In this document: positions 1-46,176 of the stretch, piece after piece
How the letters are laid out: the number at the start of each line of letters is the position of its first letter
Numbering within the stretch: the first letter of the stretch is position 1
Origin: Balanoglossus misakiensis
Lineage: Eukaryota > Animalia > Hemichordata
DNA: 64,000 nucleotides
NCBI GenBank assembly: GCA_040954595.2
Contig: CM082588.2
Coordinates: 4,466,156-4,530,155 of the forward strand
Direction: 5' to 3'
The notes under the pieces: model-generated
What the model was told of the DNA's origin: nothing
Databases searched by the model: none
Seen by the model: only the letters and a program-made list of their open reading frames with translations
Translations under genes and position numbers: made by a program

Positions 1-1064
1 ACAGAGAAAAAGACCCAGATTATTACTATAGTAGGAAGACCACAAACTGAAATTTAAGTTATGTTCTGTCCACAAACACACAAACAATATTACCACTCAC
101 TTTGCTATGATTTACAATTTAAGTATTTACATCAAATCTTTATCATACTCAAGCCCTGGGTCAATTTTATTTTAACTTATATTAATTACATGTATAAGTT
201 ATGTCATGTTTAGAAGACTTTTAAAAATCTAAATTAAGCAAATGTATAAAAGAATCAATTTTTTTTATTATTAAGGACAAAGTTGAAACCTTATCAGACT
301 GACTTTCACACAGGGCATATCTGACTTTATTTTATAATTATGTTTTTAGATTTTAATCTGAACATAATTTTGACCTGATTTTCAAATTAATCATTGCATG
401 TTAAAGATCAAATGAATGAAACAAAAGCAATTGCGATTTTATTGGCACGTTTAGCAAAATTCAACTAAACTCTAAATTTGGAACATTTCTGTGAATGAAA
501 GAAATTAAAAGCCAGTACAAAGAAAAGAATATAAAAGATGAAAGTTCAACATGGAAGGTGAATATGATAGATGATGGCGACGACTGATTCAAATTTGTCA
601 ATTTGTAAAGTTCATCAGAGAAATATTGTTTTAAGTTCCTGATGACATAACTTCATGAGCCTTTTCTCCACTTTTAAAGCAGAACAGGACAACCAATGCA
701 TATTCATCATCCACTAACTTTTGGTAGGCGGAATACATTCAGTGTATACAAAATAATCTGAAGGCACGTAAGATTTTTAAACAGACATTTGACAAATTTG
801 AAGCAGTCTTCTGTGCAAAATGTTAGCACTACAGAACAAGAATAGTCCATTGCAGGTTATCTGACAGCTTTTTGGAGACCCCCCTCATCCCCTGATTGCA
901 TAATTTATGCAGATACCAACAATTACACGGCAAAGGCTAAGACAGATAGCCTTCGCTGGTATAACACTGGTACTACCACTTTGCATCAACCCAGCTTGGT
1001 GTCTGCAAAGCATTCTTTACACTGGCATTTCTCTATGTGTAAACTCAAACTCAGGTCAACAAAA

Positions 1065-1262: not shown

Positions 1263-1432
1263 CCCGAGCACATTGAACCGGTGACAAATGATCCATCCCA
1301 TCAACCAGTCTATGTCATATTTGTGGTTTAGTATCACCACGCACGATTCCTTACCCAAAGCATCGAACAACGGTGCATCGGAATAAAGGATGCAATCGGT
1401 GCCAGAGAACCACTCGGCTAGATACACCATTT
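1263..1432 (-). CDS. AGPAT alternative catalytic exon B (QMVYLAEWFSGTDCILYSDAPLFDALGKESCVVILNHKYDIDWLMGWIICHRFNVLG)
   Basis: TAGCAG acceptor with pyrimidine tract and CTGAC branch-point candidate near 1457, GTGAGT donor, 170 nt, phase 1 to 0, NHKYDID motif, no stops. Confidence 0.88.
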
Positions 1433-2685
1433 CTGCTAGGACAACAAGGAAGACGGTCAGTGATATCGAGTGTGCAGGACGTGAAGTGCACCAGCCAACA
1501 GACAGTTGGAGATCTTTCATGGCGAGACTCAGTTATCTCACATGTCAAGCATGTTGCATTTGTGACCAGTTCCATGTACAAACAAATTGCACATTGACTA
1601 CCCAGTTTTCTGTGTCAATACCAAGCTAGTTACGATTGCTTGAAGAGTTTCAATCTGATTAAAATCAGATGTAGGGAACGGCAACATGTTTTTTTTTATG
1701 CTGTGTGAGGTGACAGCACAAAAAAATCCACGTCGCCATTCCCTACATCTGATTTTAATCAGATTGGAAGAGTTTGTGAGTCTGTCATGTTCTTTTTAAG
1801 TTAAAAAGTCATTGTACACGTGAAATTCTACAAAACTGGACACTGTGGCTGCGTTTCTGACTGAGTCTCGCACTGAAAAAACAAGCGACTGTCTGTTTCC
1901 TAGTCCAGGGTCTTTGGGACTCCCATACTTACACCGAGAATACGAAACCGTGAACACAACGTCCAACCCAGCAACCAATCAATTTCATAATGATGGTTCA
2001 TCATGCACAAAGCACTCTCTTTCCCCCACTGTTTGCTGTCCTCGTCGGTCTCATAGAGCACACAGTCAGAGCTAGCCCACCACTCACATGTGAACACCAA
2101 CTCTTCGTAGAAACAAACATGGGGGTTATTAGCAGTATGGAGATAGACACACCTCTCTTTTTTAATTACCGACTCTGACAGTAACAGCATCATAAACTAA
2201 ACTAGACTAACCACACATATCATCTGTGTTCAGTATCATGGTTGTCAATACTATACTACCAATGTTTGTAAACATACACAGTCTGTGTTGACAAGCTGAT
2301 CAGATGATAACCTTAACATGCCTCAATGGGAAGTACATGCAAGAGTAACTGAAACAGATTGTGAAAATATCGCAACGATTTAAAACACTACAGCCACTGT
2401 CCCTTTGAAATCTCAATCGTACCAAAACATAATGCAATCAAAACATAAAGCCATCACATCTTTTACAAGTTTGACGTGATTTCACAGATGAACACCAGAC
2501 TTACGGCTCCAATGCAGGTTCGCTAGAAAGCAGTTGACGCGTCTGCAGAGATCCTTGTGAAACGGCCAGATCACCAGCGAACAGCATTGCAGAAGGTTAA
2601 TGATGATACCACTGACGATGAAAGTGTAGCCAAACAGAAGTAGGCCCAGACACAAGATGATGGTCTTGAAAAATCCCTTAAGCAT
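1263..2685 (-). CDS. AGPAT3/4: 1-acylglycerol-3-phosphate O-acyltransferase, AGPAT3/AGPAT4 family (5' part; the gene continues beyond position 1)
   Basis: First coding exon 2685-2505 (MLKGFFKTIILCLGLLLFGYTFIVSGIIINLLQ...LHWS, donor GTAAGT, phase 1), followed by two alternative 170-nt exons (2102-1933 and 1432-1263), each with the NHx4D acyltransferase motif I. Probable 5' UTR exon ends at 4184 (donor GTAAGT). No later exon recognised in 1-1260. Confidence 0.92.
1651..1766. mobile_element. 116-bp MITE with terminal inverted repeats and a 9-bp target-site duplication
   Basis: Perfect 28-bp TIR CAATCTGATTAAAATCAGATGTAGGGAA / TTCCCTACATCTGATTTTAATCAGATTG, continuing imperfectly inward; flanked by direct repeat GAAGAGTTT at 1642-1650 and 1767-1775. 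Confidence 0.85.
1933..2102 (-). CDS. AGPAT alternative catalytic exon A (QLVFTCEWWASSDCVLYETDEDSKQWGKESALCMMNHHYEIDWLLGWTLCSRFRILG)
   Basis: AAG acceptor, GTAAGT donor, 170 nt, phase 1 to 0, NHHYEID motif, no stops. Confidence 0.85.
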
Positions 2686-5264: not shown

Positions 5265-8200
5265 ATGGCAACTGATGAAGAGGTGAAAAGGAGACATGAG
5301 TTAATCACCAGGAACTTACAGGAAGTTCTGGGAGAGGAAAGACTTCTGGGTTTATTGAAGGATAAAAGAGACATTAACATATACTGGGGAACGGCAACTA
5401 CTGGTAGGCCACATGTCGCATACTTTGTGCCAATGAGTAAAATAGCAGACTTTCTCCGTGCAGAATGTCATGTAAGTATCATTGATCTCAGTTTAGCCTT
5501 GTAAAAGTCACTTATACATACGGTAAACAGAGGTTAATATGAGTGATATGAGAAGTGAGTTAGGTACATTCATAAGTGACAAGATTCAAGATGTCCTCTT
5601 TTTGTCTCTGGTTTCCTAGGTGACCATTCTGTTTGCAGATCTCCATGCCTACTTAGATAACATGAAAGCACCATGGCAACTGCTTGAGTTGAGAACACAG
5701 TATTACGAAGTGGTGATCAAAGGAATGCTGGAGTCCATTGGCGTGCCTTTGGAAAAACTCAAGTTTGTCCGGGGTACTGACTTCCAACTGAAACAGTAAG
5801 TCTTGGGGTTCACTGTCTGCGTACTGATGTTCAATCTAAGTGTGAGTTTCATCATTGTAAAGTAGGAAGGTGTATTGTTCTTGGGACATGGTTCGAAATG
5901 AGTGACATTACTGGTACATGTACTGTATGTTTTTTAGAGAATATCAAACTATCTAACATCCTGTGGTCACTGACATGTCTGAGATATTCCAAGTCAACCA
6001 CAGCCCTTTACACAACATATCTGGTTATCATTGCAGGGACTACACACTGGATGTTTACAGGCTTTCATCAATTGTTACTGAGGTAACTATTATACCAGTA
6101 TTCAGAGAGGCTACATCAATTCATTTTCCATTTTGATCATCTAGGCACAGAACATATAATTTTGCCACTGCTTACATAGATCTCCAGATGTGGGCATTTC
6201 TGTAGACATAAACAACAAACGCTTTGTATATGATCTTTTTCTGCAGCATGATGCAAAGAAAGCTGGTGCAGAAGTTGTCAAACAAGTGGACCATCCATTA
6301 CTGAGCGGTCTGCTGTATCCAGGGTTACAGGCACTAGATGAAGAATACTTGAAAGTAGACTGTCAATTTGGTGGTGTTGATCAACGGAAGATTTTTACGT
6401 TTGCTGAGAAGGTAGGAATATATTTTGTCCTCATAGTCTCTGGTTGCATGACTGACGTGTACTTGTACGTGAAACAAACTGTCTGTGTAAAAGAAATTAT
6501 GAGTAGAATATTTATATCATGAGTGAGCATACATCAAGCTCAGTAAAAAAGTCCTGTCAAATGGTTCTGGATTCGAGACATGGAGGTACTTGTTAATATA
6601 ATTCTTCCTGTATGTGTTCTGTTCACAGTATTTGCCACATCTAGGATATGCCAAAAGAATTCATCTGATGAACCCAATGGGTAGGTCACCTTTGTCCAGT
6701 TTTTTATCCTTAAATTAATGGACATACAGTTTGAATATATTTATCATTGGTGGATGTAATAATGTAAACACTTTCTTTTGCAGTTCCTGGTTTGACGGGA
6801 GGCAAAATGAGTTCTTCAGAAGAAGTAAGTACATCCCTATTCCCAAATTGTCCATCCATCCTTCAACTGGTCCCAACCAACCACACCCGCCCATCCACGT
6901 ATCCTGTCATAACATTCATTCTACCACATCCCATATTCTTGTTCATTCTATAACTTCGACAGGAATCCAAGATAGATCTTCTAGACAGCTCTGCAGTTGT
7001 GAAGAAGAAATTAAAGAAAGCGTTTTGTGAGCCAGGCAACATAACCGAGAATGGTGTCTTATCCTTTGCCAAACATGTCATCTTTCCTCTCTTCAAAGAA
7101 GACGAAAGTGAGTCATATATCTGTATAATGTTCTGTAAGCCAGACAACTGTTTTGATGTCTACAGAACTAATGGCATACGTAGATGTACTTAGATAATTC
7201 TTGATTACTTTCCCTGTATTGTTAGAATTTTTAATCCCAAGAGATGAGAAGTTTGGTGGATCAGTAGAATACGCAGACTTCACTTCGCTGGAAGAAGCAT
7301 TTGGCAAGGAAGAAGTGCACCCTGGGGATTTGAAAAATGCTGTTGAAAAGTACCTGGGAAGGCTACTTGATCCAATCAGGAAGAAATTTGAGGAGAAGGA
7401 AATGAAGAAGCTTAACAGTTCAGCCTATCCACCTCCAGCAAAGACAAGTAAGTTTTTACCCTCTCACCTTTTTGGTGGTATGGTTGATTCCATTTGCTGG
7501 GAAATGGGGGATGAGAAGACCAAAGCTAGTGGAGGCATCATTGGGTGGAAATATTTGTCACACAGTCAGATTTTTTTGGTTGTCAGTGTTGATGTGACAG
7601 GATTGGGATATTTTTTTATTCACAGAACCTGGTAAGGGTGGTGCGAATGCGACAGTTGAGGAAGAAATCTCTCCAGCAAGACTTGATCTGAGAGTTGGAA
7701 AAGTGACATCCGTGAGAAAGGTAAAGAGGGGAGAGAAAAAGATTCATGGGAGGGAAGGGGGAGACAGGTGTGAGGAGGCAATATATGTGATAGACAAGTT
7801 TGGAATTAAGGTCTGTCACTTGTGAATCATCTACTCTGCCAGCTAGTTATTCGCTCTCATGGCATCTTCTGATTTGTCCATCAGCATCCAGATGCAGATA
7901 CTCTGTACATCGAGGAGATCGATATTGGTGGTGATGAGACGAGAACTGTCGTCAGCGGACTGGCCAAAGTTATCCCGATGGAAGAGCTTCAAGACAGACT
8001 CGTCGTCATGTTGTGTAACTTGAAGCCGCAGAAGATGAGGGGCGTGGAGTCACAGGCCATGTTGATGGCTGCTGCGAAGTAAGTTGCCACTAGGGGGCGA
8101 TGTTAAGTCTAGCGCTGTTCACCACTGGATATAAGCTTAATATTTCTCATGTATTGGCATCACTGTTATATTTTGATGTGAGGTGTCACATGTGAATACA

Positions 8201-10583: not shown

Positions 10584-12815
10584 TCACCAGTGGTTCTGAG
10601 CCAATCGATCCAGTGTGAATCCATAGTCGTGAGACGAGACTGGTCGCTCCGGTATCGACGTTACAGATCGGTTGATGCTGTGTTGCTGCTGCCCGATGTA
10701 GACCCGCGACCAGCGCGTTTTCGCCGGCGCCGACCTCGGCCGCAGGGTCGGGAACATCACTTTCCCCGTCAGGGGATTGATGCGGTCGATGCGCGTGGGT
10801 GCGGATGCGACGCTTGAGCGACTGTTGCGCCCCGGAGTGGTGTGGAGGGTGAAACTTTGCAGCGTCGAAGTCGATTCGTCGAGTTTGCTGTTAAAAGAGG
10901 ATGATGATTGTTGTAGTTCTTGCATGTGTGAGTACGTGGTGTCGGGAGAGTGCGACAAATGCGCAAATTTGCTCGGTTTTCGACCGAGAACAACTGTGGT
11001 GTTCTTATGAAGTTCTTTCCTCAGTCGAGCCAAAATTTCCGACTTGGTTGGAGGCTGGAAAAGTCTACTGGTTGCCTGTGGTCGGCACAATTTTATCGGA
11101 TGCATTTTATGCGGGTTAAATGTTCTGTATACCATCGTCCACTCGTCCCGCGTCCCGACGCTCTCCGTGTGCGACAGGGCACTTCGGGAGCTGAAACTTG
11201 ACTGGGGACGGTGCACGTGAGACTCTCTCCCGGAGGGGAACGAACGCGGGGACTGGGGCTGCGGTCGCTGGTACCTCTGCTTCAACTCCTCCGTTTTCTC
11301 GAGAAGCGCCGACATCAAGTCCGATGCGTGTCGGTCATCGAGCACCTCCCCCGGCAGAATCGCAGATTTTTCCGTCGACACTTCGTCGAGTCTCTCCGTG
11401 CTTTCTGTGGTCGTCACCTCGGAAGTGGTAGTACTGTCGATGATGAGAAGCGGGTCGAGGGAAAGTAGGAACTCGGAGAGACGCAGCGTGCCCTTCGGGC
11501 GGTGGATTTCCAGCATCTCGTCAAGATCCTTGTCAAGGAAACCAAAACTCGACAGACATTCTCGCAAGATCTGAGGCTGTTGCCGGAATCTCTGTATCTC
11601 CCGAGCGGCGTCGAAGCGACAATCCCGGTCGACGTGGCTGTACAGGTTGTACTCTGGCATGAAGAAATTCGGACAGAATCCTTTCAGGAGACAATTTAAC
11701 ATGTCCTCCAGGAGATGGAGAACGCACACAGCCCCCGGTGTGTCCTGCCAATATGTCAGAAGATGCTTCTCACAGGCCCACAGCATGACAGTTTTAAGAT
11801 AGTACGGGTGCAGGGCATGGCGAACATTGCAGTTTTCGTCGGAGATTTTCCGGATGACCGATTTAAGGCACTGGTAGATGCCAAGCTGTTTATCGTTCAT
11901 CATCCGCATCAGTTCCTTCTCGACATGCGCAGTGCAGATGCGGAAGAGTATTCCGTCGGAATCGTAGTCCGCGGAGAGCGGCTTTGCCGTCACATGATAC
12001 CCAACCCGACGGAGGCGGTCCAGTGACCGGCGTGGCGGCCACTGTCGGCGGCGGCTGAACCAGCCTTCCGCCGCGGACGGCCATCCTTCGCACGGAACGC
12101 AGAGTACAAGATCGGCGTTGGCTTCGTGGCTTTCGGTGGGCATTTTGAAGCCGGCGTGACTTGAAATGAAAGACGTTAAGGTGTCCTGATCCAAGAGGGC
12201 TGATATGGACTCCTGGCGACACTTGTCGAAAAGTCTTTTCTGTAGCTTGGTCGACGACAAGTAGAAGTTGTTTCTATCGTCGTCTGTGAGGTAGACGACG
12301 TAGTCCTTCCAGAGGGACACCATGTCTTTCTTAACTTGGACGTGAATGAAACCCGGGAAATCTCTATTCATTTCCAGGGCCACGTTCTTTTGCTCTTCTA
12401 TGGTAACAGCGATGTTGTCCAACACGAGCATCAGGTCGACGTCGACGCCTTTCGTGTCGTCCGTCACGGTCTCGCTGTCCCCCAAGAAACTCGTTTCCGT
12501 CACCATGATGCCTTTCAGTTGAAACGGCGGCTTGTCGTCGAAGATGGCGTGGTACTTCTCCAGCAACATGTCGTGCTCGTGCTCGGAGTACGTGTCCTCC
12601 TCATCGTCCGCGTCGTACTGGTTGTCGCCATAGAAACCGTTGCCCCGCTCGTACTGCTGCACGGTGTCGTCGCTGACTGACTGGTCGTCGGGGGTCATCT
12701 CGCCGTTCGCCAAATCTGGAGCCACCCAGCACTTCCGCGTCTTCCCGTTCTTGGCGGCGACGTCACCAACTTTCAACGTCTTCTTGTCGTCTTGATTCGT
12801 CTCGCTTTCCGGCAT
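10584..12815 (-). CDS. Mab21/cGAS-like (cGLR-type) nucleotidyltransferase-fold protein, about 743 aa, with an acidic N-terminus and a long Ser/Arg/Pro-rich C-terminal tail
   Basis: Single long ORF; first in-frame ATG at 12815 (the ORF track's TTG start is preceded by an in-frame TGA). Mab21 hallmarks: DVDLMLV, DLVLCVPCEGWP...WFSRRRQWP, GYHVTAK, FRICTAHVEKELM, YYLKTVMLWACE, CPNFFMPEYNL. Acceptor at 12905-12907; possible upstream UTR exon ending at 15128 (GTGAGT). Confidence 0.85.
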   Translation of the reverse strand: MPESETNQDDKKTLKVGDVAAKNGKTRKCWVAPDLANGEMTPDDQSVSDDTVQQYERGNGFYGDNQYDADDEEDTYSEHEHDMLLEKYHAIFDDKPPFQLKGIMVTETSFLGDSETVTDDTKGVDVDLMLVLDNIAVTIEEQKNVALEMNRDFPGFIHVQVKKDMVSLWKDYVVYLTDDDRNNFYLSSTKLQKRLFDKCRQESISALLDQDTLTSFISSHAGFKMPTESHEANADLVLCVPCEGWPSAAEGWFSRRRQWPPRRSLDRLRRVGYHVTAKPLSADYDSDGILFRICTAHVEKELMRMMNDKQLGIYQCLKSVIRKISDENCNVRHALHPYYLKTVMLWACEKHLLTYWQDTPGAVCVLHLLEDMLNCLLKGFCPNFFMPEYNLYSHVDRDCRFDAAREIQRFRQQPQILRECLSSFGFLDKDLDEMLEIHRPKGTLRLSEFLLSLDPLLIIDSTTTSEVTTTESTERLDEVSTEKSAILPGEVLDDRHASDLMSALLEKTEELKQRYQRPQPQSPRSFPSGRESHVHRPQSSFSSRSALSHTESVGTRDEWTMVYRTFNPHKMHPIKLCRPQATSRLFQPPTKSEILARLRKELHKNTTVVLGRKPSKFAHLSHSPDTTYSHMQELQQSSSSFNSKLDESTSTLQSFTLHTTPGRNSRSSVASAPTRIDRINPLTGKVMFPTLRPRSAPAKTRWSRVYIGQQQHSINRSVTSIPERPVSSHDYGFTLDRLAQNHW

Positions 12816-13269
12816 GATTGTATCTTTTGATTGTGGAATCTTCAAGGCGATCTTCTTTAATACAAACGCAGCCAATCTTCACTCACTCTTCCATGGTTTG
12901 GTACCTGTAAGACAAATTCATGACAACGGGTTATTGTAACTAGAAATACCGATGAAGAAAGGTATACTGCTGTCATTATTCAACTCTACGTCATGTTTTT
13001 ATCGCTGACGTACCATGCCGGTAGGTGCATTTGTCAATGATAAACATTTGTCAAAATGAAAATAAATCACTCGACGCTGGTTTCGACCGAACGGTAACAG
13101 TCGAACTGACTTCATAGAATATACAGAACCCAGCAACGACATCCCCCGGACATGCGAGGATCAAGTAAGATTACCCGAGTAAATTTTCACATACCGATAA
13201 CAGGTGTTCTTTTTATGATGGACAACTGACCATTGACCATTATGATGGTGAAAACTTTAGACATTTAGT

Positions 13270-17327: not shown

Positions 17328-18539
17328 GTAAATATACTGCGTTTTGTATTCTGAATTTTACGTTGTTCGTGTGTGCGGCGTACTGGGGCTGATAACAGGA
17401 CGCGTGCGTATGACGAAATCTCCGGTCATAGACCTTGAAGACTGATATACATGCTCATTTAAAAATATTTTACAGGAGAAATAGTGGAGAGAAATCCGAT
17501 TCATCCCATTAAGACGTGTACGTGCCGTATTCACATTAGCGACACGTCAGACTACGTTTTCTATTCGGTTTCTTCCGTAGAGAACGCGTTTACAATAGCG
17601 CGCCGGCCGGCTTTTCAATGACAAAAGGAAGCCGGTATCTCGACACGTTTTGCGTTCTTGCGTACGTTGTCCGCTATATCCACTACCCCAAAAACGTCCA
17701 CCGTTTCCAAATTACATGAAAACCCCATCGATGAAATCGTATGCTTTCTGCGCGGCGGACAGTTTCATATTTTATAGCGTGAAAAATGTCCGCATTATCC
17801 GTGTCTGGCGCATGATCACTGACGTACGCAGTGACAGCCGCGCCAGACTCCCTAAGTATGTTGTCGATTTCAGATACGTTGATAATGCAACGTGCCATGG
17901 TAACGCGAACAATTGCTACAATGCGCGCTGCGTTAAGCGTTAATCGGCGGAAATCGACATGGCTTTTCCTACTAACAGATTTACCAGAAATATACACGGC
18001 ATTTCGGCCATTAGACCATAGACAGTATATAAATCATGTCTTGTCACCGTGACTTGAGACTTCAGTCTGATTTATTTTTCCGTCGTGCTGAGAATATATG
18101 TATGCCTACTTCAAGTTCGTGTTTTTTAAAAAAAAGTTAGCAGACTAACTATGCGTTACGCGGATTTTTTTTACGTTTCGATAGTTTAATAACTCGTTTC
18201 CATGTCTGGTATCTATTATAACTTGGTCTCCGTTTCAAAACTTGGCGGGCGATTGCCGGCCTCGGCGTGATTGCATCATTGTCGTTGCCACCCACAATCA
18301 GCTTGTCAATGGCATTGTTATTCAAATCAAATAAGGGATGAACCAAGCTTCCCCTTCTCACGCACATCTTTGTTCTCCACGACAGGCGCTGTACGGACCG
18401 GACGGATGGGGGATATGAACTAGCCGACCCGCCAATATTCCCCGCAAGATTTTGTTTGCCCGCAGTCGGGTCGTCCGGCGATGAGTTTCGAACGCCGGCG
18501 TTCTGACAGTCGTAGCTGTTATTGAAAAATAGACATAAG

Positions 18540-21500
18540 ATGGGGAAATTCGAGAAACACCGAGACGAGATCGAACCGGAGACGGAGCGTCGGATCACCG
18601 GCCTCCGCCCGCATCACGTCCCGCCCGAAGGAGGGTGGGGGTGGGTCGTGTGTACCGCTTCGTTCTGGACCAACGGGACGATTTTCGGGATCTTGAACTC
18701 ATTCGGAGTTCTGTTGGTTGCGATGCTGGATGATGAAACTCTCAAGGAGTCTGGAGCCGATGCTTTTAAAACATGTAAGTTTACAGACAGTGTAATTCAC
18801 ATACGGCTTTATATTATAATATGTACACGCATACACGCCATTTTCAAGACAGCACTAGAAAATTGTCCCGATCCTCATGACTTTCGTCTGAAATAATTAC
18901 TTTAAAAAGTATGTGTTTGTGAGAAGAGATATGTTTACAACGTAACGCTGGAGTCGCATTGATTAAACATGAGAATATCCATTACCAATATGTGAATTTT
19001 ACACTGACTGTCACCTTTACGCCTACGTACCCGCTGCGATCAGCTGTTATCTACAATCGACCGGCTTTTGCGCGACGCGTTGCAATCAGCTGGTCTAAGC
19101 ACCTTTTGTCCTATATGTGGTCTGTATCGTTAATTAACAATCGGGCTATTCACAAGTTCTTGTTTACTGAAACGTCTTTCCCTGATAAAGTATGAGAACA
19201 TCAACAAATATTTGGGTCCACGTCTGACATAAATAGCGACAAGAAACTCATATATGTATGTGGCCGCATTTTGTGTTTTTTTTCTCCGAAAAAGACGCAC
19301 AGTGAATGAATGAGCGTCTTCGATCATTTCTTCCCATTCGATGGTTAAGTATAATCGAGATTACATAACGATCTGCGGGTGCCGCATTGTCTTTAAACCC
19401 CAGTATTCTTTGTTGGCTTTCGAGGCCTACTAACACTGCTATTCAAAATCCCAAGTTCATTTACACGTACATACACCCTGATTTGACGGCCTGAGTTGTT
19501 CGTGCGTGTTGAATCTCGTTAACATACAATGCATATCGCCTGATTCGCTATCGCCCTTCAAACCGCATAAAATATTAATTCGCGATGCAAATTGCATTCA
19601 CGAGCCCATCCTATAAATTCATTCAGTCAAACGCTTCTATTTGGGAAAGCAATATGTGATTTATTAACTCTGCAAACCATCCCATATCTGCCTATATTGC
19701 GATAACAATTCTTCAAACTTTATTTTTCCAGACATTCTAAAGTATGCACTTATGTTTATGTCAATTTCGAAAACTTGACATTTCAGTGCGCAATCTGTGT
19801 ATTCACCCTGACCCACAAAGTCCTTAATATATGTTACCTTATCATTCACGGATCCAGGGTAGACTTTTACCAAGGCTAACTTATTCGTTTATTAAAAGAA
19901 AAGTTAATATTTGCACCATTTACTCACGGTCGATTTACTGGTAGGCCTACTGTACTAGTGCGCACATTCATGGTTTATACCCAAGTGTCCAACTTGTTTA
20001 GTGTTCCAGCCGTACGTGTTTTTCGCATTCGTTCCCGCACTAGCCAGGTAGTGTGGGAGCGAAGGCGAAAACACGTACGGATACTATTTTACCAGTCTAC
20101 CAACTTGGGTATTTCGGTGTTTTGCAATTGTCTACGTCCACATGCGTTCAGACCGCATACAGTGGCGTTGATCGTCGTGTCATGAGATACATTACAAACT
20201 GGAAAAACATATTCCTTTGGACACAGTGGTATTAATTTGGAGTTAGACGGAGAAAAATAACTTTACCACGCGTCCGGAGGGTGGGCGCGGGCGCGGGCGC
20301 GCGGGGAATGTCCTCTGCGGTATGACCCCAAGGTGAACCTTGACGTCACACAGTTTAAAGGACCGCCCACACATATAGCGCACATCGACATCGTGGCCGG
20401 GGCGCCGGCCGGTTACAAGTACTTTTACTAGTGTACATGCCCGAACAGTAAGATCATGGTCACCGTGCTTTTACATGTAGTCATATTCGACTTCAAAGAG
20501 GTCTTAAACTGTAGGAAAACGAGAGCCACGTTACATACAAGAATCCAATTACAACGCAGACATAGTCTGTAATCACGTGATGAAATTGATCCCCTGTTGT
20601 TCAGTTCAGTGAAATCACTGTCGTAATCGCTTTCACTGTACATGCCTCGGAACAAACAGACCCCACACCCTTCTAGGGTCAATGCCCTGTAAAAGTAGAC
20701 TCAAAGACGTAAGCTGTAACTCACAGGGAATCGATCCCCAAACTATACACTGGACAACGGTTACTAGTAACCGTGACTGGACAAAACACTGCATCATGAT
20801 CTTGTATACCTGAAACCCCCACACCCCTGAACTGTGTAACAATCCCATTGATAACTGTAATTCAGATGGACAGTACCACAATAATCGTGGGGGGGGGGGG
20901 GGGAGTCACAGTCTGAACTCTCGGGGAATTGTGACAGGTCAACTGTGTAATTTTGGTGGGGTGTTAAGTTGAAGGTCCCAACGTATTTTTGTTAAAGATG
21001 AAGCATAACAATAGCAGTTTATGCATGGCTGCATCAGCTGGTACTGAATGACCTTGACCATAGCAGTGGAACAAGCCTTTTTCAGTTTTCCAGAACAGTT
21101 GAACCTTGCGATTGTGATATTGCGATTGTCCATCTTATAGCCCTGTTAAAGCAAGCAAACAAAAAGATAAAAAAATTTAAACAAATAATCAAACACACAA
21201 ACACAAACAAACAAATACAAATAAAAAATAAATAAATAATAAATAAATAAATACTAATAAAAGGTATATAACTTTAATCTGAAGCTGACTGACATTGCAT
21301 AAATACACAAAAAAACAAATAATATTTTCTGTAACTTTTTAACCTTCAACCCACTTTTAAGTGGGTTTATTTTACATACTTGATAGTCAATCTTTGGAAT
21401 TGGGATGGCATTGTCCTTCAGATACTTGAAATAATCTCAACTGATTGCACTCAAGTACAAGTACTGCGTAATATACCAACCATGGTGTGTTGGATCACTT

Positions 21501-24500
21501 ACAAGGTCAAAGGTCACTCAGATTACAAGGCAACTTTGAACTCTGGTTCACCTTGGTTTTGCAATAATAATCGCTATTAATAACTATAACTAGGTGAGAT
21601 ATTGTGCTGGACAAATTGAGAACATGACATTTGGATTATTATTTCTTCATCCTGCTTTAAAAAGGACCATAAGATTTAATGATATAATATTTGCAAAGAA
21701 GCCAGCATCTTTGAATAATAGTTTTGCAGTAAGCACAGCCACCACACATGTTAGAGACTGTACAAAGTGTGGTCTTTATCAACAATATAGTAAACAATTA
21801 ATTCAAAATGTAACCCGGTGCTGAGTGTAACTTAAAATTATTGACCAACGCGTGTTCCTCTTGACTTAAGGAGGAAAATTGGTGTAATTTGGGATCAGAC
21901 GATCTGATACATCATCCATCTTGTCTCTGTTATCTGGTGTTTGTAATGGGCTTGTCATTCATAGTCTAATGTACAGCCATAGTGCATGTTGTTTGCGCCA
22001 TACATTAGGGCGAAATATTGGATAGGCCCTTTGCAGAGTTCACTTTTCTAGGAGGGTGAGCCATTGTGTGACTGTATGTCTATGGTAGTATTTGTTGTAT
22101 GGACAAGAGACTATAAAACTGTCTGGCCAGGATTTAATCAGGAAAGTCATCTGTGGGTCAAATCAGTCGTAAAATTCAAAGTTTTGGCGAACCACTCCGC
22201 CAGGTATAATCTTTGCTCTTCGAAATCCACTGAGACCAGGGGCACTAATGTGTGTGACCGTACTTTTCCATGTACGTGTTACCTGAAACATTTTTTATGC
22301 ATCGTCTGTTTTGGAATTTACCATCAATCTTTGAGACGATCACGATAGATTTGCTCATGAAATCATTGATGAGAACTGTCTTTTCATATATGTACAGGGG
22401 AGACACTTCTGAATAAAGAACAAATTTAGCAACCTATGTTTATTTACTGTTTGGGAATCCAATAAACACTTGAAAATGTATTTTTAGGTGAAGATTACAG
22501 ACTTATCTGCTTCCAGGACAATAAAATATTTATTTTTAGAACACATGTTGCTGTTTTTAACCATTAATTGGTTGTAAATTGCTGGGGTGTCTCTCTAAAA
22601 CGGGTGATAGGGGACTAGAAACCTCATTATGGTGCATTTATTGTTAATAGCAAACTATACAGGGGGCAATGGTCAACAGCAGATGATGGAAAGACTAGAT
22701 AAATGTTTGACCGCTGTTTGACCACAAAAACAAGATGTGCATTCAGTGTGATAGCTAGTTGTCAGTGGTCTTCTTAGGAAGATTTTTTTAGAAAACATGT
22801 CAGGTATAATGACTGTGGTGAACTGTTTGGAATTAATACGGAATGTCACTTTGAAATGAGACTACAATATAGTGCCTTTAAAAGTGTGAAAAAGTAAAAG
22901 TGATCGATCCAAAGAACAATAATTTTTGTTCACTTGGCCTTAAAGATGCATATCCTGCAAGTCAGGACTGGCTTTGAATGAAAGCATTCACATGTTGGTC
23001 AAGTGTATTTTTTCAGTTGACCCTTAACAAAAAGAAAAAGGAAGAGCTATGGCGGCGGAAGTCGGAAGAGTGCCCTACATACTGCGTCCGGCAGGAAAGT
23101 TGTTGCCAGGGAACCTTGCCTCATTTGCATGTTTGTATTGTTTCAAAATGGCCTTTTCAAAGTGACCTTCTTTTTCGCTCATTAAAACAAAACGCACTTT
23201 TACCTTCAGTTGCTGCATTTTGGCAATTATCTAGGTCAATTCCAGGGGGAGTGGTTCTGATTTTCATTTACATACAATGGTGGCGACGTCATTTAAATGC
23301 ATGGATGAATAGTTGTGGTAAACAACCCTATTTTTCGTACCAGCGCACAGTTTTTAGTGTCAATCAACGCTTTCTTCTCTTTGACATCATTTGAACAGCT
23401 GATGTCTGTTGTTGTGTTGTCTACATCAGAAAGAACTTGTTCCTTTGTATTATTTTTTTTCAAAAAGTTAACTGTAAGCTGTTTTCTCAACCTTTCTGTC
23501 CTGGCCTGTTGGATCAAAATAAAATTTATATGGCTAACAATATTTGCAACTGCACTCCTGAACTGAGATTAAACCCTTTCACCACCATGGTTCAGTCCAA
23601 ATCCATTGTTTTCTATGGTAAAGTTGGACCTCTACACAGAAAACCAGGGGTGAGAGGGTTATGAGTACAATCTTTATTCAGAAGTGATGGTTAATCTAGG
23701 ATAACAAACACAGAGTTGCTGAGTCAGCATGGTTGCTTTTCTATCTGATAGTCACAATGATTGATTGACATGTTGTGATAAAAATGACAAAATTACTGTG
23801 ACATATGAAAGTGTTGAATTCAGCCTCTGACAGAGTGCACTATGAAGGGGTCACACTGTCATACATGTACCTTTTCAATATTCTGAAGGCTAATAAACAC
23901 CATTTTCAGTGTGAACAGATGATCATCCGATATTGCAGATATTGTGAACTATATTTAGAAATCATGTGATGTGCAACTTGATGGTCAGCTGAGGGAATTG
24001 TCAGATTTCCGTATTATATAGCTGTGCGACACACCCCTTCCAACGCCCACTACCGGGTAGATCTCCTTCATCTGGAGCTGGGGGTGTGTGAGTGTCGCGA
24101 TTTGACGAGCGCATAGTCGGAATTTAATGAGCATGCACACGGCTTATAATTCTTGGGTTGACCTTGATGTATTTCTTAAGGAAATTTATTTTATAATCAT
24201 GTAACAGTTGAGTGGTTTTTAATTGATGACTGATTTTCCTCAGTGTACACTTGACTTTCCAAGTTTGGTAAAGCATACATGCTAAGAATGGTCCTATGAA
24301 CAGAGTGTGTGCATACGTGCATGTATGTGTGTGTTTGTGTGTAGTGCGGCTAATATATTTCATTCACATTAGTTATAGTCTGCCACTGACTACTCAGTTG
24401 AAAAGAAGTTGAATCCCAAGAGGGATCATTGAACTTTGTGGTCGCTCAGTGCTCTCTTCTGGTAAACAACCTTCATACAAAATAATAAGTAAAAATAATA

Positions 24501-27500
24501 AGCATGTTTATCGAGTTCAATCTATATGCATCTGATGAGAAATGTGATGTCGATTTTTACTTCATCTATTTTTGTCAATTCTCATTCTCTGCGTGCTTGT
24601 GCTTCTTATATCATATTCCGTTTAATTATTTCATAGTTAAATAACAACACATGATCGCCAGAGATCGATCTGACACTGTGATGTCATTGGTCCCAGAGCC
24701 CAAGGTGACACTATCATGATGCCTGACTGAGACAATTCTGATCATGCGTTCCAAAGTGTATGCATGGCTAGAAATTTCCGACAACAGACTGTCCAGCAGG
24801 CAGTCATGGACGTGATAGAGCAAAGGTTGTGGACAAGGGACACACTCAGTCTGTCTCCCAAGCCATTTGTATACAATAGTCGATCTAGATGTTGACTGGG
24901 CCAATTACAAGAAACTGATTTTTTGTTTGTATTGGCAGATCATAATACCATGGTTACTAAAAATGCTGTAATAGGGAACTAAATCTCTCAGTTTAATCAT
25001 CTGGCAGTTTTAATAAGCCAAGTCCCACAATGCACCAGTACAGGAAATGGGTGATGTAGTTCATCAAAGAATGATGTAGGGTTGAAATGTTATATCAGGA
25101 CAGAAGTATAAATTAAATTGTAATTGCAGTATTTTTGTTCTATTTTGTATCTGTGACTAATTTTATTTTATTTTTTAATTTTTATTTGTAGCGTGGGTTG
25201 GCTCACTGACTGTAGGCTTAACATTCCTGTTATCACCTTTGGCGAGTATCTTAACGGACAAACTTGGCTGCCGCAAAACTTCTCTCATCGGTTCTGTTAT
25301 AGCTTTTGTGGGCTGCATCTCCAGCTCGTTTTCCCGGAAAATTGAAATCTTATTCCTGACTTACGGTATCATTCTGGGTACCGGTTTCTCATTGACCTAC
25401 ACGCCATCTCTTGTGATCCTCGGCCACTACTTCAAGAACCGGCTGGGTCTGGCGAACGGCCTGGTCACCGCGGGCAGTGGACTCTTCACGATCGTCATAC
25501 CCATCGCGCTGGAGTACCTGGTGAAGGCGGTCGGGCTTTGGAACACGTTGCGCTTCATCAGTGGGCTCGTCTTTCTCCTCATCCCGTGCTCGCTGACGTT
25601 CAAATCTCTGCTTCCCCCGGGGCTGAACTACGGCTCGACCAGCAACCTGCGAGTTTACAGCGGATTCAAGGGCTGGGTTGCTCGCTACGTCAATGTGCAT
25701 ATTTGGAAAATCAGGAACTATATTATCTGGTGTGTTGCAGTGCCCATTGGACTGTTTGGCTATTTTGTCCCCTTTGTACATTTGGTAAGTATTATATACT
25801 TATTTTACTAAATTGTTCATTATCAGGAAATTTTATTAAATGTGAAAATGACATATGTCAAAGACTGGACAAGTGACAAGAAAATGGGTAGACAATTGAA
25901 TATGCCATCCAACTTCAAGCTGTATCTGACAAAACATGAAACAGGTGTTACTAATATCATATTTCCTGTGAGATTTATCCGTTGTCTGATTAAACCTCAT
26001 GCAACACCAGTTAAGAGAATAAACCACAATGCATGTGTGAACTTTGGTCGTTCGCAATTTTTTGTATCCAGGACAACAGTTAATATCATAATCTACACTT
26101 CTGTTCACAATACTATGCAGTAAATTATTTAGTTGACAAAAGTTAATTTTAGTGAAATATTTACTAAAATGTGGACTTTTTTCATGGTGTGATTTGATTA
26201 TATCTGATTTATCAAAATGTTAATATGGACTTCGACTTGGATTATCAGTTAGTGTTCAAATGTATTGGACTTTCTAAATGGCTGACTGGAAGAGTTTCTT
26301 TTGAGATTTTCATGTTTTGGGTAATTTTGATGAAATTTGAATTGGTTTGATCGTAGAGATGTTCAATGGAACAACAATTTTGATTTGAATTTGAACAAAA
26401 CTTTGGCGATGACTCATCTTGAGTGATGGGTGAAACCACAGTTCCTGAAGAATTAAGTGTATAGAAATTCTGAACAAATACAAGACAAGTGTACTGACAT
26501 GTATTTTCGAGTGTTTGTGCAAATCCTGTGGGAATCATTATCTCAAGGAGAACAGCAGTATCAACTGTAACAGTTTGCCTAAAGTTTTATCCGTCAATTC
26601 AAAAACCATGTAAAGATATGATTACCTGGGAGAATGTTGATTCAGTGATATCGGTAAACCTCTAGTCAGCAGAATTAATAGGCTTATTTGTTCAAAACTC
26701 AAAATAGATATAAACTTTGTACAGAATAGTCAAAGTCGGTTCAAAGGCTGATAAAGCCTTTCACAAAACCCCCAACCCCCTCCCCTCCCCCCCAATTTCA
26801 AGTGTGTGGATGGACCTGAGTCGATCTATTGCAATGTCAGGTGAACCACAATGCAGACTGGGAGGGGGGGGGGTCACCTCGGATTGGGGCGCATAATTCT
26901 ACATGTATGCTGTGGTGTGTATGGCATACATAACTAGTATGCAGGGCCAACAAATGTATAGCAGCTAGGTTATGAAGGGACATTTTCCATCAAGGTACTA
27001 GGTGGAAACAGTGGAAAATTCCTTCTTTCATATCTGCAGCCCAGTTTTGATATGCTGTACGCAAGGTCATCGAATGTGATAGAGCAGACAGACTGATAAA
27101 TCAGCTGACTGTCACTTGATTGGCTAAAGTATATTCTGGGTCATACATTTGAAATAAAGACCTTCAGCCAGAAAAGGGCCATGAAAGATTCCAGGCTATC
27201 TGTACACAAATATGCAATGTTGATAAGCTAGATACTAGGCATATTTTGTACCTCGAGGAATTGAATAAGAAATTTCAATTCAGTTCAAAACTAGTGAAAC
27301 AATAATATTTAATAGAGTTATGGAGATTCAAATAAGTAATATGAATTTCATGTGCTACCTATATGCAGGATTTTTGTGTTTCTCAGATAACTGCAGACTT
27401 TTGTTCAATATAAGGATTCCAATGGGGTTAACATACTTTTTAAAAATGTAATCTGAATAAGAATGATTTGATTATTGCCCCTAAGCTTATAATTGGATTG

Positions 27501-29019
27501 TACCACATTTTATCAGATGTTATGGAATCCTACATAATCTATAACCATTCAAACAGTAGCTATCTCGTTTAGGGTGGAGCAGATTGATTTGTGATAACTT
27601 GAACAGTAATGCAGTAACCTATCAGTTGGAGAATTAGATTTCTTTGTTTCTGCTCTGTTTTATGTAAACCTTGCAATTGTGTTTTCAATATGCATCAGAC
27701 TAGTACATCAATCTTTGGGCCAATAAAATTTAATTCTTTTATTGCACATCCCTGCACTTTGTACAATTATCAAATATTTGATTTTGGTCTAAGAAGCACA
27801 CTGACAATTGTTTTGATATAGGTGACTGTGAGTACATTATATGTGTGTAAATATAACCCACAGATTTTAGATACACAATTGTAATGCTACTCAATTTCTT
27901 TTCCATAGTAACGCCATTTCTTTATTCTTTGACAGATCAACCATCTGAAGAATGTTTTGCCAGCAGCGAACGGCGCAGTCCTGATAGGAGCGTTGGGAGC
28001 AACATCGATGGTCGGTCGATTGGTGTTCGGCAAAGTAGCGGACATTCCCCGGGTCAATCGCATCGTCCTGCAGCAAGTGTCCTTCCTGGCCATCGGCGTC
28101 ATCAGCACGCTCATCCCCATCGCCGCCTCGCACTTTGCCAGTATCATGTGCGCGGTTCTAGTCATGGGCATCTTCGACGGTTGTTTTGTGTGCATGATGG
28201 GGCCGGTGGCTTTTGATATTGTTGGTGCTGAGAATGCCTCCCAGGCGGTTGGCTTCATTCTGGGTATCATGTCGATACCACTGACTGTGGGACCCCCTGT
28301 TGCAGGTGAGTTTCCATTTTTATATTATTTTAAATGTTTGGTTTAATATTAATCATGTGCATGTATTTCATTCATTCTTTGGCTTCACTGGTTTGAATGC
28401 TCAGTGATATTCCGTGGTCGATTTTGACATCCTCTGCCGTTCATAAGAAAAGACCACAGCTGTTTACAGGCAAAGAATTATCCCCCCCCCCCCCCCCCCG
28501 CAGCGTTACATTAGTGTATTTAGCGCCCTCAATCTCATGAATAATTCTTTTGTTTTTACAGGTCTGATCTTTGATATGACGGGATCATATAATATAGCCT
28601 TCATGTTAGCTGGAGCACCGCCGATCATAGCGGCGTGCATCCTGTTCCTGATAAGGCCTGTTGAGCACATCACCCATATGCCGACGACAGAACCTCTGGA
28701 ATACTTACAGGTTTCCCGGGAAGATCTCCTGAGCATTGACACCGACACCACCAAGAGGTGGGAAATCCGGCATCATCTGTCGCCAGCGCCAAGCCACGAC
28801 AATCTTCTGCATATTAACGGTGGCATCAGCCATGCCGATAAAAAGACTGCAAACGGTATTGGAGAATCACACCACCACAATCACCACCACCACCACGGCC
28901 ATGAACTTGCTGCGAAGTTAATTAAAACGCTCAACGGTCACGTCGCTGCGGGAGAGACATCGCATCAAGCTGAAGAAGACGAAATGCTGTTGGTCTTTGA
29001 CAGGGTCACTGTGGTTTGA
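18540..29019 (+). CDS. SLC16A10: Monocarboxylate transporter family SLC16, MCT10/MCT8-like (aromatic amino acid / iodothyronine transporter clade), about 551 aa
   Basis: Exons 18540-18774, 25192-25784, 27936-28305, 28562-29019, phase consistent. Motifs PPEGGWGWVV..SFWTNGTIFGILNSFG, YTPSLVILGHYFKNRLGLANG, FGYFVPFVHL, GRLVFG, FDGCF, GPPVAG. The symbol marks the SLC16A10/SLC16A2 clade, not one-to-one orthology. Confidence 0.9.
23572..23660. mobile_element. Short MITE-like element with imperfect inverted ends
   Basis: Left AACCCTTTCACCACCATGGTT versus reverse complement of right end AACCCTCTCACCCCTGGTTT; TTAA on the left only, so no clean TSD. Confidence 0.5.
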
Positions 29020-31783: not shown

Positions 31784-34700
31784 TTAAAATGGGTGTTGCT
31801 TTTGCGGAACACATGGTTGTTCTGGAGCAAGGAAGGTAATGCGTCCCTCCAGACCAGTTATGATTGGGGATGTGGCCTCGATATATTCTATCAGTATGTC
31901 AGCGTCCAAATCACCTAAAAATAAAATAATAAAACATCAAATCAGGTCCAATAATCAATATCATGGAAGGTAAGCTAATTACCAGGAAGGAATGAAAAGG
32001 CAGTAGTTACAAAAATGTTAACATGTCCTAGGCTTAAAACTGCAAGCATGTATGATAAAGCACGCTGGCAAGGACATGGCAAACCATGCCGTTGTCGATT
32101 TCGAGGTGAAGCGCCCTCATAACTCATCTGACCCATCGATACAATGACATGTGACATGGTATCGTACAGGAACATATACAACGTTGGGTTTGCCTACCTG
32201 GAATGTGATAGGAAAGTCTCTCATCCACGATCATATCGTACCCATCTCCGCCACCAGCCATGAATGTTGGCAGGACCATTTTGTATACGGCGTTGAGGTC
32301 AAGTGGGAAAAATTCCGGAACCATGCACGCCGAACATTTAGCGTACACTTTCACAACACGTTGTCCAACTGGTTTTTCGAGGTCAAAGGTCACTCTCAAT
32401 CCTACAAGATGAAAAAATTGTGTTGATATTTTTATGATTTCCGTCTTATAAATATCCGTTAAAATTTTAACTTGTTCAGCTGTTAATTATAAATTAGGAG
32501 TAAATGTATATGTATTTCGAATGTCTATAAGCATTGTAAAAATTCAGATACTAGTAGTTCAATTGGTAGCCAGGGCAACAGAAGTTTATCTTACCCGAGA
32601 CTTGTATGAATCGGCCGTGTGGATCCTCAGGGGTGTACATAGATACAGAGTTCTCCAGCATCTTCAGAATCGTTGATCCATATATTTCCACTAAGTCATA
32701 CGTTTCTTGGTAAGGCAACACTTGCATTACATCGCCGACACTTATTGCCTCTGAAGAAAATTGAAAATTGCAAGGCAGTCAATAACACAACTTGATTCCG
32801 ATCGTTCGAGTTTGATCAATAATGTGCGGATCAATCGCTCGGGAGACTAATTGATTGGTTGGATTGACAAGTTAATTGTTTGCAATAGGTCGAGTCATAT
32901 TGAAGAACTTTCACTATAGACATTAGCGTCGGCTTCAAAGGCAAAAATGAGTTGTTTCCAATCACCCTCCCCAATAGCCATGACTAGAAACAGTTTTATT
33001 TTTTTGGCTTAAACAATGTCTGTAGCGGGAATACATACTTGGGCCTTCTATCGAACTTCGTATCCCTCCGCTGTTCATGACGGCGATGCTGACGTCACTC
33101 CACTTCGTCTCATCCGGGTGCTTCATGTTCTGGTGTATCATGGCGTCGGTGATGAGGTTTCCGATGTTGCACTCTTGCATGCGACAGGCCGGTCGAGTCC
33201 CGTCCAGAAACACCCGGGTTTTACCGATCTCTTCATAGTTCAAGGCTTTGATCGGGATTGCCCAGTGCTCAATATCTTCCAGTGTCTCCTCGTCTGTAAC
33301 AAGAATTAACACCATGATAAACGTTTAATTAATACTGTAGGATATATGTGATGATACATCGTTATCCTTTCCTTTAGATGTCTCAGGGCCAGGGCGATCA
33401 TTCCAAAATATATAGGCATATATAGGCAACGTATATAATTATTTCGAATAGATCTTACTCAGTTGGAACACAAGTCTGAAATTCAGTTCGAAATTTAAAA
33501 TCTACGAATGTATTTCCCTACCTTGTTCGACAGTGTTATCCAAAAGTATAGGATTTCCACCCCATGACGTAATATCACCCTCGTCATCAAAGGTGACCGT
33601 CAAATGACCGAGATACTTTCCAAAGGCGTAGTCCTGGACGACCAATACATTTTTCTCCGGGTTGGAAACCGGGTGGCATACAACTGGATATTCGTCGTAA
33701 GGTTCTTCGTTTGAAGGCGGTTCTCCTGGAATATGAAAATCCTAGAATTGCATGAACTGTTCAGTTTAAATTTTAAACTTCAAAATACAAGGCGTGGTGG
33801 AGAATTATTTGTACGTCTTGTCCTATTATGCCTTTGTTATGGAAGGAAATGCGGAGTTCACCAATATAAGCGCAAAGATCGCAAAATTGTCAGACATGTC
33901 ATGTATATGGTTTGATCTAACTAGATAGCGGGGCCAGATTCCCCTGTGGTTCAAACAACCCTTGCTCATGTATGTATGTTTGAAATGACAAACCTTAGAC
34001 CCACCTGTATACAGGAAGGTATTGGTATGTCCACCAACGACGATGTCGATCCCGTCCACTTGTTCTGCTATCTGTCGGTCGACCCCAATCCCAGCATGTC
34101 CTATGGCAATGATCTTGTTGATTCCCTGTGCTTTGAATTTCTCCGCTTCGGCACGGATGGACTCGATCTCTGAGTTAAATATTAGTTTCCCTGTAGGTGG
34201 AAATAGACCATTTTCCAAACCCCACGATATTGTGCGAGAGCTCGCGTGGCTGGGTAGTTTATTATTATTTAATGATCAAAACATGAAGAATTTTTTTTAA
34301 TACTACCTTAATGAAGAAACATACCTGTTGCCGCTAGACTAGGCGTCTCCGTTGTTGTGTACCCGATTATACCAACGATTTCACCACCAGGCAATGTGAC
34401 TTTTGTCGACTTGGAGAAGAGTCCGTCCAAACTCGGCTCGAAGCTGGCGTTGATGTTCGAGCTCAATACAGGGAACGTGACGTTTTTCAGGAACGGAACC
34501 ACGCCGTCGATGTCGTTGTCGAATTCGTGGTTTCCCAGTGCCTGGTGGAAGAGTGGAACAGGGTTGATTTAAAAATAGAGAGGGCCACTCAGCTGCAATA
34601 AAAAAGCAGTCGCCGTCGGAAAATTGGCGAGGAGGAGAGAGATGGAGATAGGGGGTTTGAATGTAAAGATACAGAGTATTTCTGTTCTCCATAGTACCAT

Positions 34701-36930: not shown

Positions 36931-37016
36931 CTCTCTCTCTCTCACTCACTTACTTACTCACTCTCCCTCCCTCTACTCCGTCTCCCCTTTCTCGCTCTAT
37001 TTCTCTCTCTCTCTCA

Positions 37017-37047
<31 letters not shown>

Positions 37048-37050
37048 CGT

Positions 37051-37085
<35 letters not shown>

Positions 37086-37160
37086 GTCACACACACACCC
37101 ACTCTCCCATCTCCACTTAATATGTTGGGTTCTCTCTCGGTCTCTCTCCCGTCCCACCCT
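36931..37160. repeat. Compound (CT)n/(CA)n microsatellite
   Basis: Direct reading of the sequence. Confidence 0.95.

Positions 37161-43076: not shown

Positions 43077-46176
<3,100 letters not shown>

What the first reader, a model, noticed from the sequence alone, without database searches (positions are those of the whole stretch)
1490..1904. Long-range RNA stem closes the intron between the two AGPAT alternative exons
Seen: nested complementary blocks 1522-1533 (GCGAGACTCAGT) with 1860-1871 (ACTGAGTCTCGC, 12/12), 1497-1506 with 1888-1897 (10/10), 1515-1519 with 1874-1878, and a possible G-U-containing extension 1490-1494 with 1900-1904. In the pre-mRNA this loops out about 330 nt and brings the exon A donor (1932) to an effective 60-75 nt from the exon B branch-point candidate (1457). 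Known: short donor-to-branch distances and intronic RNA pairings are established mechanisms of mutually exclusive splicing. Inference: the stem blocks A-to-B splicing or biases exon choice. The effective distance is borderline, so the mechanism is not certain.
Basis: partly seen in the sequence, partly recalled or inferred. Interest (0 to 1): 0.7.

Follow-up and report, generated by a model that had tools for sequence, protein, structure and literature searches.

The report
RNA stem between twin enzyme exons
A gene for a membrane-lipid enzyme (AGPAT3/4), likely from an acorn worm, carries two old copies of its catalytic exon, and the intron between them has matching ends predicted to fold into a long RNA stem that likely tilts the choice between the copies, as a similar stem does in the FGFR2 gene, rather than physically blocking their joining.

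Summary
The stem is real. All four complementary blocks are at the stated places and beat chance (0 of 5000 and 0 of 770 shuffles; 1 of 1156 window tiles stronger). It lies between two intact, purifying-selected 170-nt copies of the AGPAT3/4 motif-I exon, in a likely acorn worm. Contigs of one sample show an allele without it. The stem folds identically without it, and its arms are single-copy. The proposed block is not supported: the effective donor-to-branch distance is 61-75 nt, above the ~50-nt steric limit, and neither site is masked. Joining A to B gives a stop five codons into B, so nonsense-mediated decay alone could enforce exclusivity. Best reading (0.4): an FGFR2 IAS2-ISAR-like bridge that biases exon choice; a neutral inverted-repeat relic remains (0.3). 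No RNA data or orthologous intron could be had. Two unrelated metagenome loci duplicate the same exon without such a stem. The scan noted a similar stem earlier in an octopus UBR1/2 gene (unchecked). New member of a known kind.

The parts
2505..2685 (-). AGPAT3/4 first coding exon (ATG at 2685; 181 nt, ends in phase 1)
   Evidence: read from sequence; open 60-aa frame; 40-55% identity to AGPAT3/4 N-termini
1933..2102 (-). Exon A, 170 nt, AG/GT bounded, carries catalytic motif I (NHHYEID)
   Evidence: one synonymous variant at 1948
1263..1432 (-). Exon B, 170 nt, duplicate of A (25/56 aa, 92/170 nt), motif I NHKYDID; read after A it stops at codon 5
1860..1904 (-). 5' arm of the predicted long-range stem, starting 28 nt after the exon A donor
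   Evidence: variant 1892 turns A-U into G-U
1490..1533 (-). 3' arm of the predicted stem, ending 33 nt before the branch-point candidate
   Evidence: variants 1509, 1510 in an internal loop, 1519 re-registers
1651..1766 (.). 116-bp palindromic MITE inside the loop, high copy, present/absent polymorphism
   Evidence: 57-nt arms 88% complementary; over 1100 contigs laid per run, depth 1e5 against 38-99 beside it, empty-site joint 1608->1767
1642..1650 (+). Left copy of the 9-bp target-site duplication (GAAGAGTTT)
1767..1775 (+). Right copy of the 9-bp target-site duplication
1455..1462 (-). Predicted branch point of exon B (CACUGAC, A at 1457, 25 nt from the acceptor); not mapped
   Evidence: only YNYURAY match within 180 nt of the acceptor

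Best explanation
The two arms are predicted to zip the intron between the twin exons into a 32-bp interrupted stem that likely works as an RNA bridge biasing the choice between exon A and exon B, while messages carrying both or neither exon are frameshifted and would be removed by nonsense-mediated decay. Shown: complementarity beyond chance, single-copy arms, independence from the MITE, two intact constrained exons, stop codon on double inclusion. Inferred: that the stem forms in vivo; that it places the 33 nt before B's branch point just downstream of A's donor, so one protein-binding element can act on both exons (the FGFR2 logic); and that it keeps A's donor from pairing inside the loop. 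The loop would absorb insertions such as the MITE without changing this geometry. The regulator and the direction of the bias are not known; favouring A is my guess.
For: Stem beyond chance and sited at both ends of the inter-exon intron, whereas intron 1 has no end-to-end duplex (-18.5, 90 of 100 shuffles as good). Mismatches cluster into internal loops between perfect 10- and 12-bp helices (P about 0.01 for scattered decay, post hoc). All 4 arm variants are mild (0, 0.3, 0.6, 1.6 kcal/mol against a mean of 2.3 for all 267 single changes) and both other haplotypes keep -49 of -51 kcal/mol. The stem stops 28 nt from the donor and 33 nt from the branch candidate and masks neither; forcing it open lowers A-donor accessibility from 0.58 to 0.33 (window allele) and from 0.51 to 0.02 (X1-like allele). 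Precedent: IAS2-ISAR form a stem that activates FGFR2 IIIb and represses IIIc (PMC2471395 passage); in SCN9A a stem shifts the ratio without loss of exclusivity (bioRxiv 10.1101/2025.08.16.670673 passages).
Against: No transcript, probing or orthologous intron was available, so neither use of both exons nor conservation is shown, and no two-sided compensatory change was seen. Paired positions are less variable than the loop (2 of 64 against 11 of 108) only at p = 0.077, and intron sequence outside the stem is as quiet (2 of 85). No Rbfox UGCAUG lies in this intron and only one UGGUG, in the 3' arm. The donor-masking helix that the stem would out-compete is within background (-9.4 and -14.0 against -10.2 +/- 1.9). 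L016 and L022 duplicate the same exon with no end-to-end stem. Transposon-like inverted repeats of similar span exist in the window.
Confidence: 0.4

Rival explanations
1. The arms are a functionless relic of an old inverted-repeat element or local foldback; exon choice rests on splice-site strength, proteins and nonsense-mediated decay.
For: Three other loci in 64 kb reach the same alignment score (5 of 1061 tiles, besides 2 on the MITE), and one, 43297-43644, has 45-nt terminal repeats around a 300-nt loop. The polymorphism contrast is not significant. The same exon is duplicated in L016 and L022 without a stem. The duplex is nearly as strong on the other strand (-47.6 against -51.2).
Against: Arms are single-copy at 80% likeness, have no second copy in the window, no target duplication beyond one chance 4-mer, block-like rather than scattered mismatches and only mild variants, and sit just clear of both splice signals.
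Confidence: 0.3
2. One reading: the stem shortens the donor-to-branch distance below the steric limit, so A cannot be joined to B.
For: The stem cuts 476 nt to 61-75 nt. Small local hairpins on either side, or a weaker branch candidate at 1482 (about 36 nt by the same count), could bring it under the limit. Structure plus steric hindrance was implicated for Dscam exon 17 (cited in PMC7969005; the paper itself was not held).
Against: 61-75 nt is above the ~50-nt threshold; natural cases are 25-41 nt and 46 nt (PMC7969005 passages; vertebrate values, none known to me for hemichordates). The donor-side hairpin loses a pair with variant 1909. Frameshift already removes A+B messages.
Confidence: 0.15
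3. The stem is an intron bridge that promotes A-to-B joining, sending a regulated share of transcripts to nonsense-mediated decay to tune enzyme level.
For: Pairings at intron ends promote splicing in fish (PMC7404189 passage); the geometry leaves both signals open; A+B has a stop at codon 5 of B.
Against: Both exons are kept under purifying selection as coding sequence, which a poison role does not need; no RNA evidence.
Confidence: 0.1

Closest known systems
FGFR2 exons IIIb/IIIc, IAS2-ISAR stem
   Same: Two tandem duplicated exons; one long-range, non-competing stem; double inclusion or skipping subject to decay (bioRxiv 10.1101/2025.08.16.670673 and PMC2471395 passages). That both elements lie in the intron between the two exons is recalled, not seen in a call.
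   Different: Here an enzyme's catalytic exon; no UGCAUG after the 3' arm; no conservation or functional data; the loop carries a polymorphic MITE.
SCN9A exons 5a/5b, ISRE1-ISRE2 RNA bridge with Rbfox2
   Same: A stem next to duplicated exons that sets the ratio rather than exclusivity.
   Different: That stem lies downstream of the second exon, is weaker (-17 to -24 kcal/mol) and has Rbfox sites beside it; decay was not the main enforcer there.
OGDH 4a/4b distant branch points; Dscam exon 17 steric hindrance
   Same: Two exons with a short donor-to-branch distance proposed as the block.
   Different: There the branch point itself is 25-46 nt from the donor; here it is canonical at -25 and the effective distance is 61-75 nt.
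Docking-site/selector competing pairings (Dscam exon 6, 14-3-3, Mhc, srp)
   Same: Intronic pairing near duplicated exons (PMC6071210 Introduction; PMC4691838 passages).
   Different: No exon is looped out here and no competing partner of either arm was found within the window.
AGPAT3/AGPAT4 (LPAAT gamma/delta)
   Same: Both exons match the family's motif-I exon with the same ends; NHxxxxD kept (PMC6688108 passages).
   Different: The named isoform sets that I aligned (two scallops, one coral) do not swap this exon; no such swap found in print.

Membership tests
Tandem-duplicated mutually exclusive exons | Two homologous adjacent exons of like length, phase and splice sites | tested here: met
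   170 nt each, AG/GT, 25/56 aa
Tandem-duplicated mutually exclusive exons | Both copies under coding constraint | tested here: met
   A 18 of 21 and B 16 of 21 family-conserved columns; A=B in 15 of 21 conserved and 11 of 35 variable columns
Tandem-duplicated mutually exclusive exons | Transcripts with one or the other, not both | not testable with these tools
   no RNA holder listed; exon 3 lies outside the window
FGFR2-type approximation stem | One stable long-range stem within the intron between the two exons | tested here: met
   predicted only
FGFR2-type approximation stem | Arms conserved with compensatory changes across species | not testable with these tools
   no eukaryote genomes served; within-sample variants inconclusive
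FGFR2-type approximation stem | Regulator-binding element brought near the upstream donor | tested here: inconclusive
   no UGCAUG in this intron, one UGGUG in the 3' arm; UGCAUG in exon A and intron 1
FGFR2-type approximation stem | Splicing changes on disruption and is rescued by compensation | not testable with these tools
   bench test
Steric-hindrance exclusive exons | Donor-to-branch distance under about 50 nt | tested here: not met
   61-75 nt with the predicted branch point; branch point not mapped
Docking/selector competing structures | One arm with two alternative partners, an exon looped out | tested here: not met
   best alternatives -30 to -32 kcal/mol, within background of 60 tiles; only 1262 nt of the downstream intron seen
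Decay-enforced exclusivity | Exon length not a multiple of three; early stop on double inclusion | tested here: met
   170 mod 3 = 2; stop at codon 5 of B
Transposon terminal repeats (outer arms) | Many genomic copies and a flanking target duplication | tested here: not met
MITE (inner hairpin) | Terminal inverted repeats, target duplication, high copy number, empty-site allele | tested here: met
   a 9-bp duplication suggests the Mutator superfamily (recalled)

The most novel reading that the evidence does not exclude
A folded intron replaces the distant branch point: the stem and its flanking hairpins hold exon A's donor too close to exon B's ordinary branch point for the two to be joined, and because the loop is invisible to the spliceosome the intron stays open to transposon traffic. 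One gene thereby switches between two catalytic-motif versions of a membrane-lipid acyltransferase, a swap that animals have invented at least twice, and MITE-plus and MITE-minus alleles in one sample give a natural test.
Probability: 0.15. Interest if true: 0.62.

Novelty: new member of a known kind. Interest (0 to 1): 0.38.

Why it matters
If functional, it adds a hemichordate case to the short list of stems between two alternative exons and gives a compact 375/500-nt system, with natural alleles, to ask whether a stem at 61-75 nt effective distance bridges, blocks or biases splicing. The exon swapped holds motif I, which contacts the acyl acceptor (PMC6688108 passage), so the two forms may differ in lipid preference; I found no report of this swap. 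The mechanism class itself is established.

Tried and rejected
No genome held for the window, so no genome-wide copy search. No RNA holder listed. Word-based homologue searches with each exon found nothing; the profile search did, with no hit above 57% identity, so no close relative's gene was seen. No solved structure matched exon B. Rfam gave only sub-threshold miRNA-hairpin hits on the MITE and one snoRNA hit at E 2.1: rejected. A 21-nt pairing of exon B's end (1270-1290) with 1557-1577 loses pairs at variants 1565 and 1572 (my reading of the pairs): rejected. A helix masking A's donor (1927-1939 with 1535-1550) is within background. Competing docking partners: none above background. U12/U2 incompatibility: donors are GTAAGT and GTGAGT types. 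Target duplication around the outer arms: one 4-mer among 240 end pairs, as chance gives. Scallop and coral isoform sets differ at their ends, not at this exon. Of 79 metagenome loci, 11 with two full hits are whole-gene tandem copies. A larger tile test timed out and was rerun on one strand. PMC3917985 and PMC5711460 were not held. Literature searches with no relevant paper: 0 hits; 2 hits, unrelated by their listing.

Full report
Observation. On the transcribed minus strand they nest into one interrupted stem of 12, 5, 10 and 5 pairs, present in the MFE and centroid of the 500-nt intron. Pair probabilities are 0.88-1.0 for the three inner helices; the outer helix falls from 0.92 to 0.72 when 1.7 kb of context is folded. 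The alignment score of the two intron halves (34) was reached by 0 of 5000 shuffles, and the best 49x49-nt duplex (-48.6 kcal/mol) by 0 of 770. Among 1156 minus-strand tiles of the same geometry one was stronger; the tile that holds this stem off-register ranked third. A looser duplex test on whole 110-nt ends was less clear: 40 of 3000 shuffles and 28 of 4612 tiles. By alignment score 7 of 1061 tiles reached 34: two on the MITE and five on three other loci. The stem is more than chance for this intron, but such stems occur a few times per 64 kb here.

The gene. Exon 1 (2685-2505, phase 1) is followed by exon A (2102-1933) and exon B (1432-1263), both 170 nt with AG/GT ends and 25 of 56 identical residues. 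Exon 3 lies outside the window. A profile of the two exons found 495 proteins at E <= 0.001. I looked up 20 of them; those with a family name are AGPAT3/4-type acyltransferases, the others hypothetical or unnamed. Single-exon fragments end at the same place. Pfam PF01553 matched both below its cut-off (15 against 23 bits). Both keep NHxxxxD, catalytic motif I (PMC6688108 passages). A matches 18 and B 16 of 21 family-conserved columns, and they agree in 15 of 21 conserved but 11 of 35 variable columns, so both stayed under coding constraint. A neighbouring transporter exon is 82% identical to Glandiceps talaboti, 69% to Saccoglossus and at most 53% to listed non-hemichordates: the host is likely an acorn worm. 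Use of either exon in RNA is not shown.

The loop holds a 116-bp palindrome (1651-1766) flanked by a 9-bp direct repeat. More than 1100 contigs per run lie on it, at summed depth about 1e5 against 38-99 over the arms and exons (depth is not a copy number). Contigs of runs X1 and X2 (one sample, one study) join 1608 to 1767 with 25 other letters between, which by eye resemble 1617-1641: an allele without the element. X2 also has a contig that matches the window into the element. This is a polymorphic MITE. Cutting it out leaves the stem probabilities unchanged. The outer arms are not its ends, have no other copy in the window and have no convincing target duplication.

Natural variants. Four listed variants fall in the arms: 1509 and 1510 in an internal loop, 1892 (A-U to G-U) and 1519 (breaks a terminal pair, but the helix re-registers). 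They cost 0, 0.3, 0.6 and 1.6 kcal/mol against a mean of 2.3 for all 267 single changes; the two other haplotypes score -49.3 and -49.0 against -51.2. Paired positions vary at 2 of 64 and loop positions at 11 of 108 (p = 0.077), but the intron outside the stem also varies at only 2 of 85. For this count I dropped the MITE, the replaced block and loop positions near contig-piece ends, where the tool lists no differences. No two-sided compensation was seen. Mismatches cluster between perfect 10- and 12-bp runs (P about 0.01 if scattered; post hoc). This is weak support for selection.

Mechanism. With the only good branch motif near the acceptor (A at 1457, 25 nt upstream) the stem shortens 476 nt to 61 nt, or 75 nt with the core helices only. 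The proposed steric threshold is about 50 nt and natural cases are 25-46 nt (PMC7969005 passages). The stem masks neither site: forcing it open lowers the unpaired probability of A's donor from 0.58 to 0.33, or from 0.51 to 0.02 in the X1-like allele, and of the branch site from 0.57 to 0.47. The helix that would then cover the donor is within background. Neither arm has a competing partner above background in exon 1, intron 1, the exons or the 1262 nt of downstream intron in view. Since 170 is not a multiple of three, B read after A stops at its fifth codon, and skipping both joins phase 1 to phase 0; decay is a recognised route to exclusivity for such pairs (PMC6071210 Introduction). A block is therefore neither indicated nor needed. 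I favour a bridge that biases the A:B ratio (0.4), then a neutral relic (0.3), a steric block helped by local hairpins or a branch point at 1482 (0.15), and a bridge that feeds A+B messages to decay (0.1).

Related loci. Of 79 metagenome loci with this exon, two, L016 and L022, carry a tandem duplicate of it; in L022 both copies lie between single exons 1 and 3. Eleven others with two full hits are whole-gene copies, and many loci are short or intronless, so 2 of 79 is a lower bound. Their exons are also 2 mod 3 in length. A 41-row tree places their copies apart from A and B, among lophotrochozoan-like rows, but with 57 columns and 11 of 38 branches well supported; independent duplication is likely, not shown. 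Their intervening introns have no end-to-end stem (75 and 17 of 100 shuffles as good). The exon pair can thus exist without this structure.

Known systems. The closest is the FGFR2 IAS2-ISAR stem, which activates IIIb and represses IIIc (PMC2471395 passage; bioRxiv 10.1101/2025.08.16.670673 passages and one section); its position between the exons is recalled. SCN9A has a ratio-setting stem downstream of its second exon. It works like these by geometry only; membership needs conservation and mutation data that I could not obtain. It fails the tests for steric-hindrance and docking/selector systems. Other papers seen as passages only: PMC4691838, PMC7404189, PMC11802352, PMC5703972. The Dscam exon 17 paper was not held. 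Searches for an AGPAT exon swap or this architecture found nothing relevant; most subscription papers are outside the library and no supplements were read.

Earlier notes of the scan. None lies near this place. One describes a long stem between twin exons in octopus UBR1/2 and one pairings around springtail pangolin exons; eight shown from this genome describe other duplicated exon sets and also call the host an acorn worm. They are unchecked and did not change my reading.

Verdict. Observation confirmed, interpretation partly supported. A real, single-copy, MITE-independent stem between two catalytic-exon copies; function plausible and untested; a new member of a known kind; interest 0.38.

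Noticed in passing
L016:419-591 and 1070-1242; L022:1650-1831 and 2790-2962: A second, likely independent tandem duplication of the AGPAT3/4 motif-I exon. The first copy has NHKYETE, with Glu for the catalytic Asp, in both loci; that change strongly inhibits mammalian LPAAT alpha (PMC6688108 passage), so it may give a low-activity form.
   Followed up: partly
L016:693-699; L022:1949-1955: Both introns have TACTAAC 107 and 123 nt after the first donor. It is a perfect branch consensus and also the complement of their GTTAGTA donors; in L016 it pairs with the second exon's donor at -32 kcal/mol, in L022 at only -12. Many AGs follow, so a distant branch point is unlikely.
   Followed up: partly
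window 1651-1766: High-copy MITE family with variable internal length among copies and a 9-bp target duplication; present/absent alleles within one sample.
   Followed up: yes
window about 1056-1109: A second multicopy element in the intron after exon B (depth thousands against 50).
   Followed up: no
window 579-601 and 789-811: 23-nt inverted repeat, 91% complementary, 187-nt loop, in the intron after exon B.
   Followed up: no
window 43297-43644: 45-nt terminal inverted repeats around about 260 nt, the strongest long-range duplex among the tiles; likely an old DNA-transposon relic.
   Followed up: partly
window 2002-2007 and 2336-2341 (- strand): UGCAUG (Rbfox-type) motifs in exon A and intron 1, none in the A-B intron or exon B; background 0.28 per kb.
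   Followed up: no
window 5269-7632 (+), 10587-12878 (-), 18516-29016 (+), 32127-41974 (-), 56371-61222 (+): Neighbours by open frames: a divergently read tyrosyl-tRNA synthetase, a 764-aa single-frame gene, an MCT10-like transporter, and several 5'-nucleotidase-like copies; names other than MCT10 are recalled from the residues.
   Followed up: no
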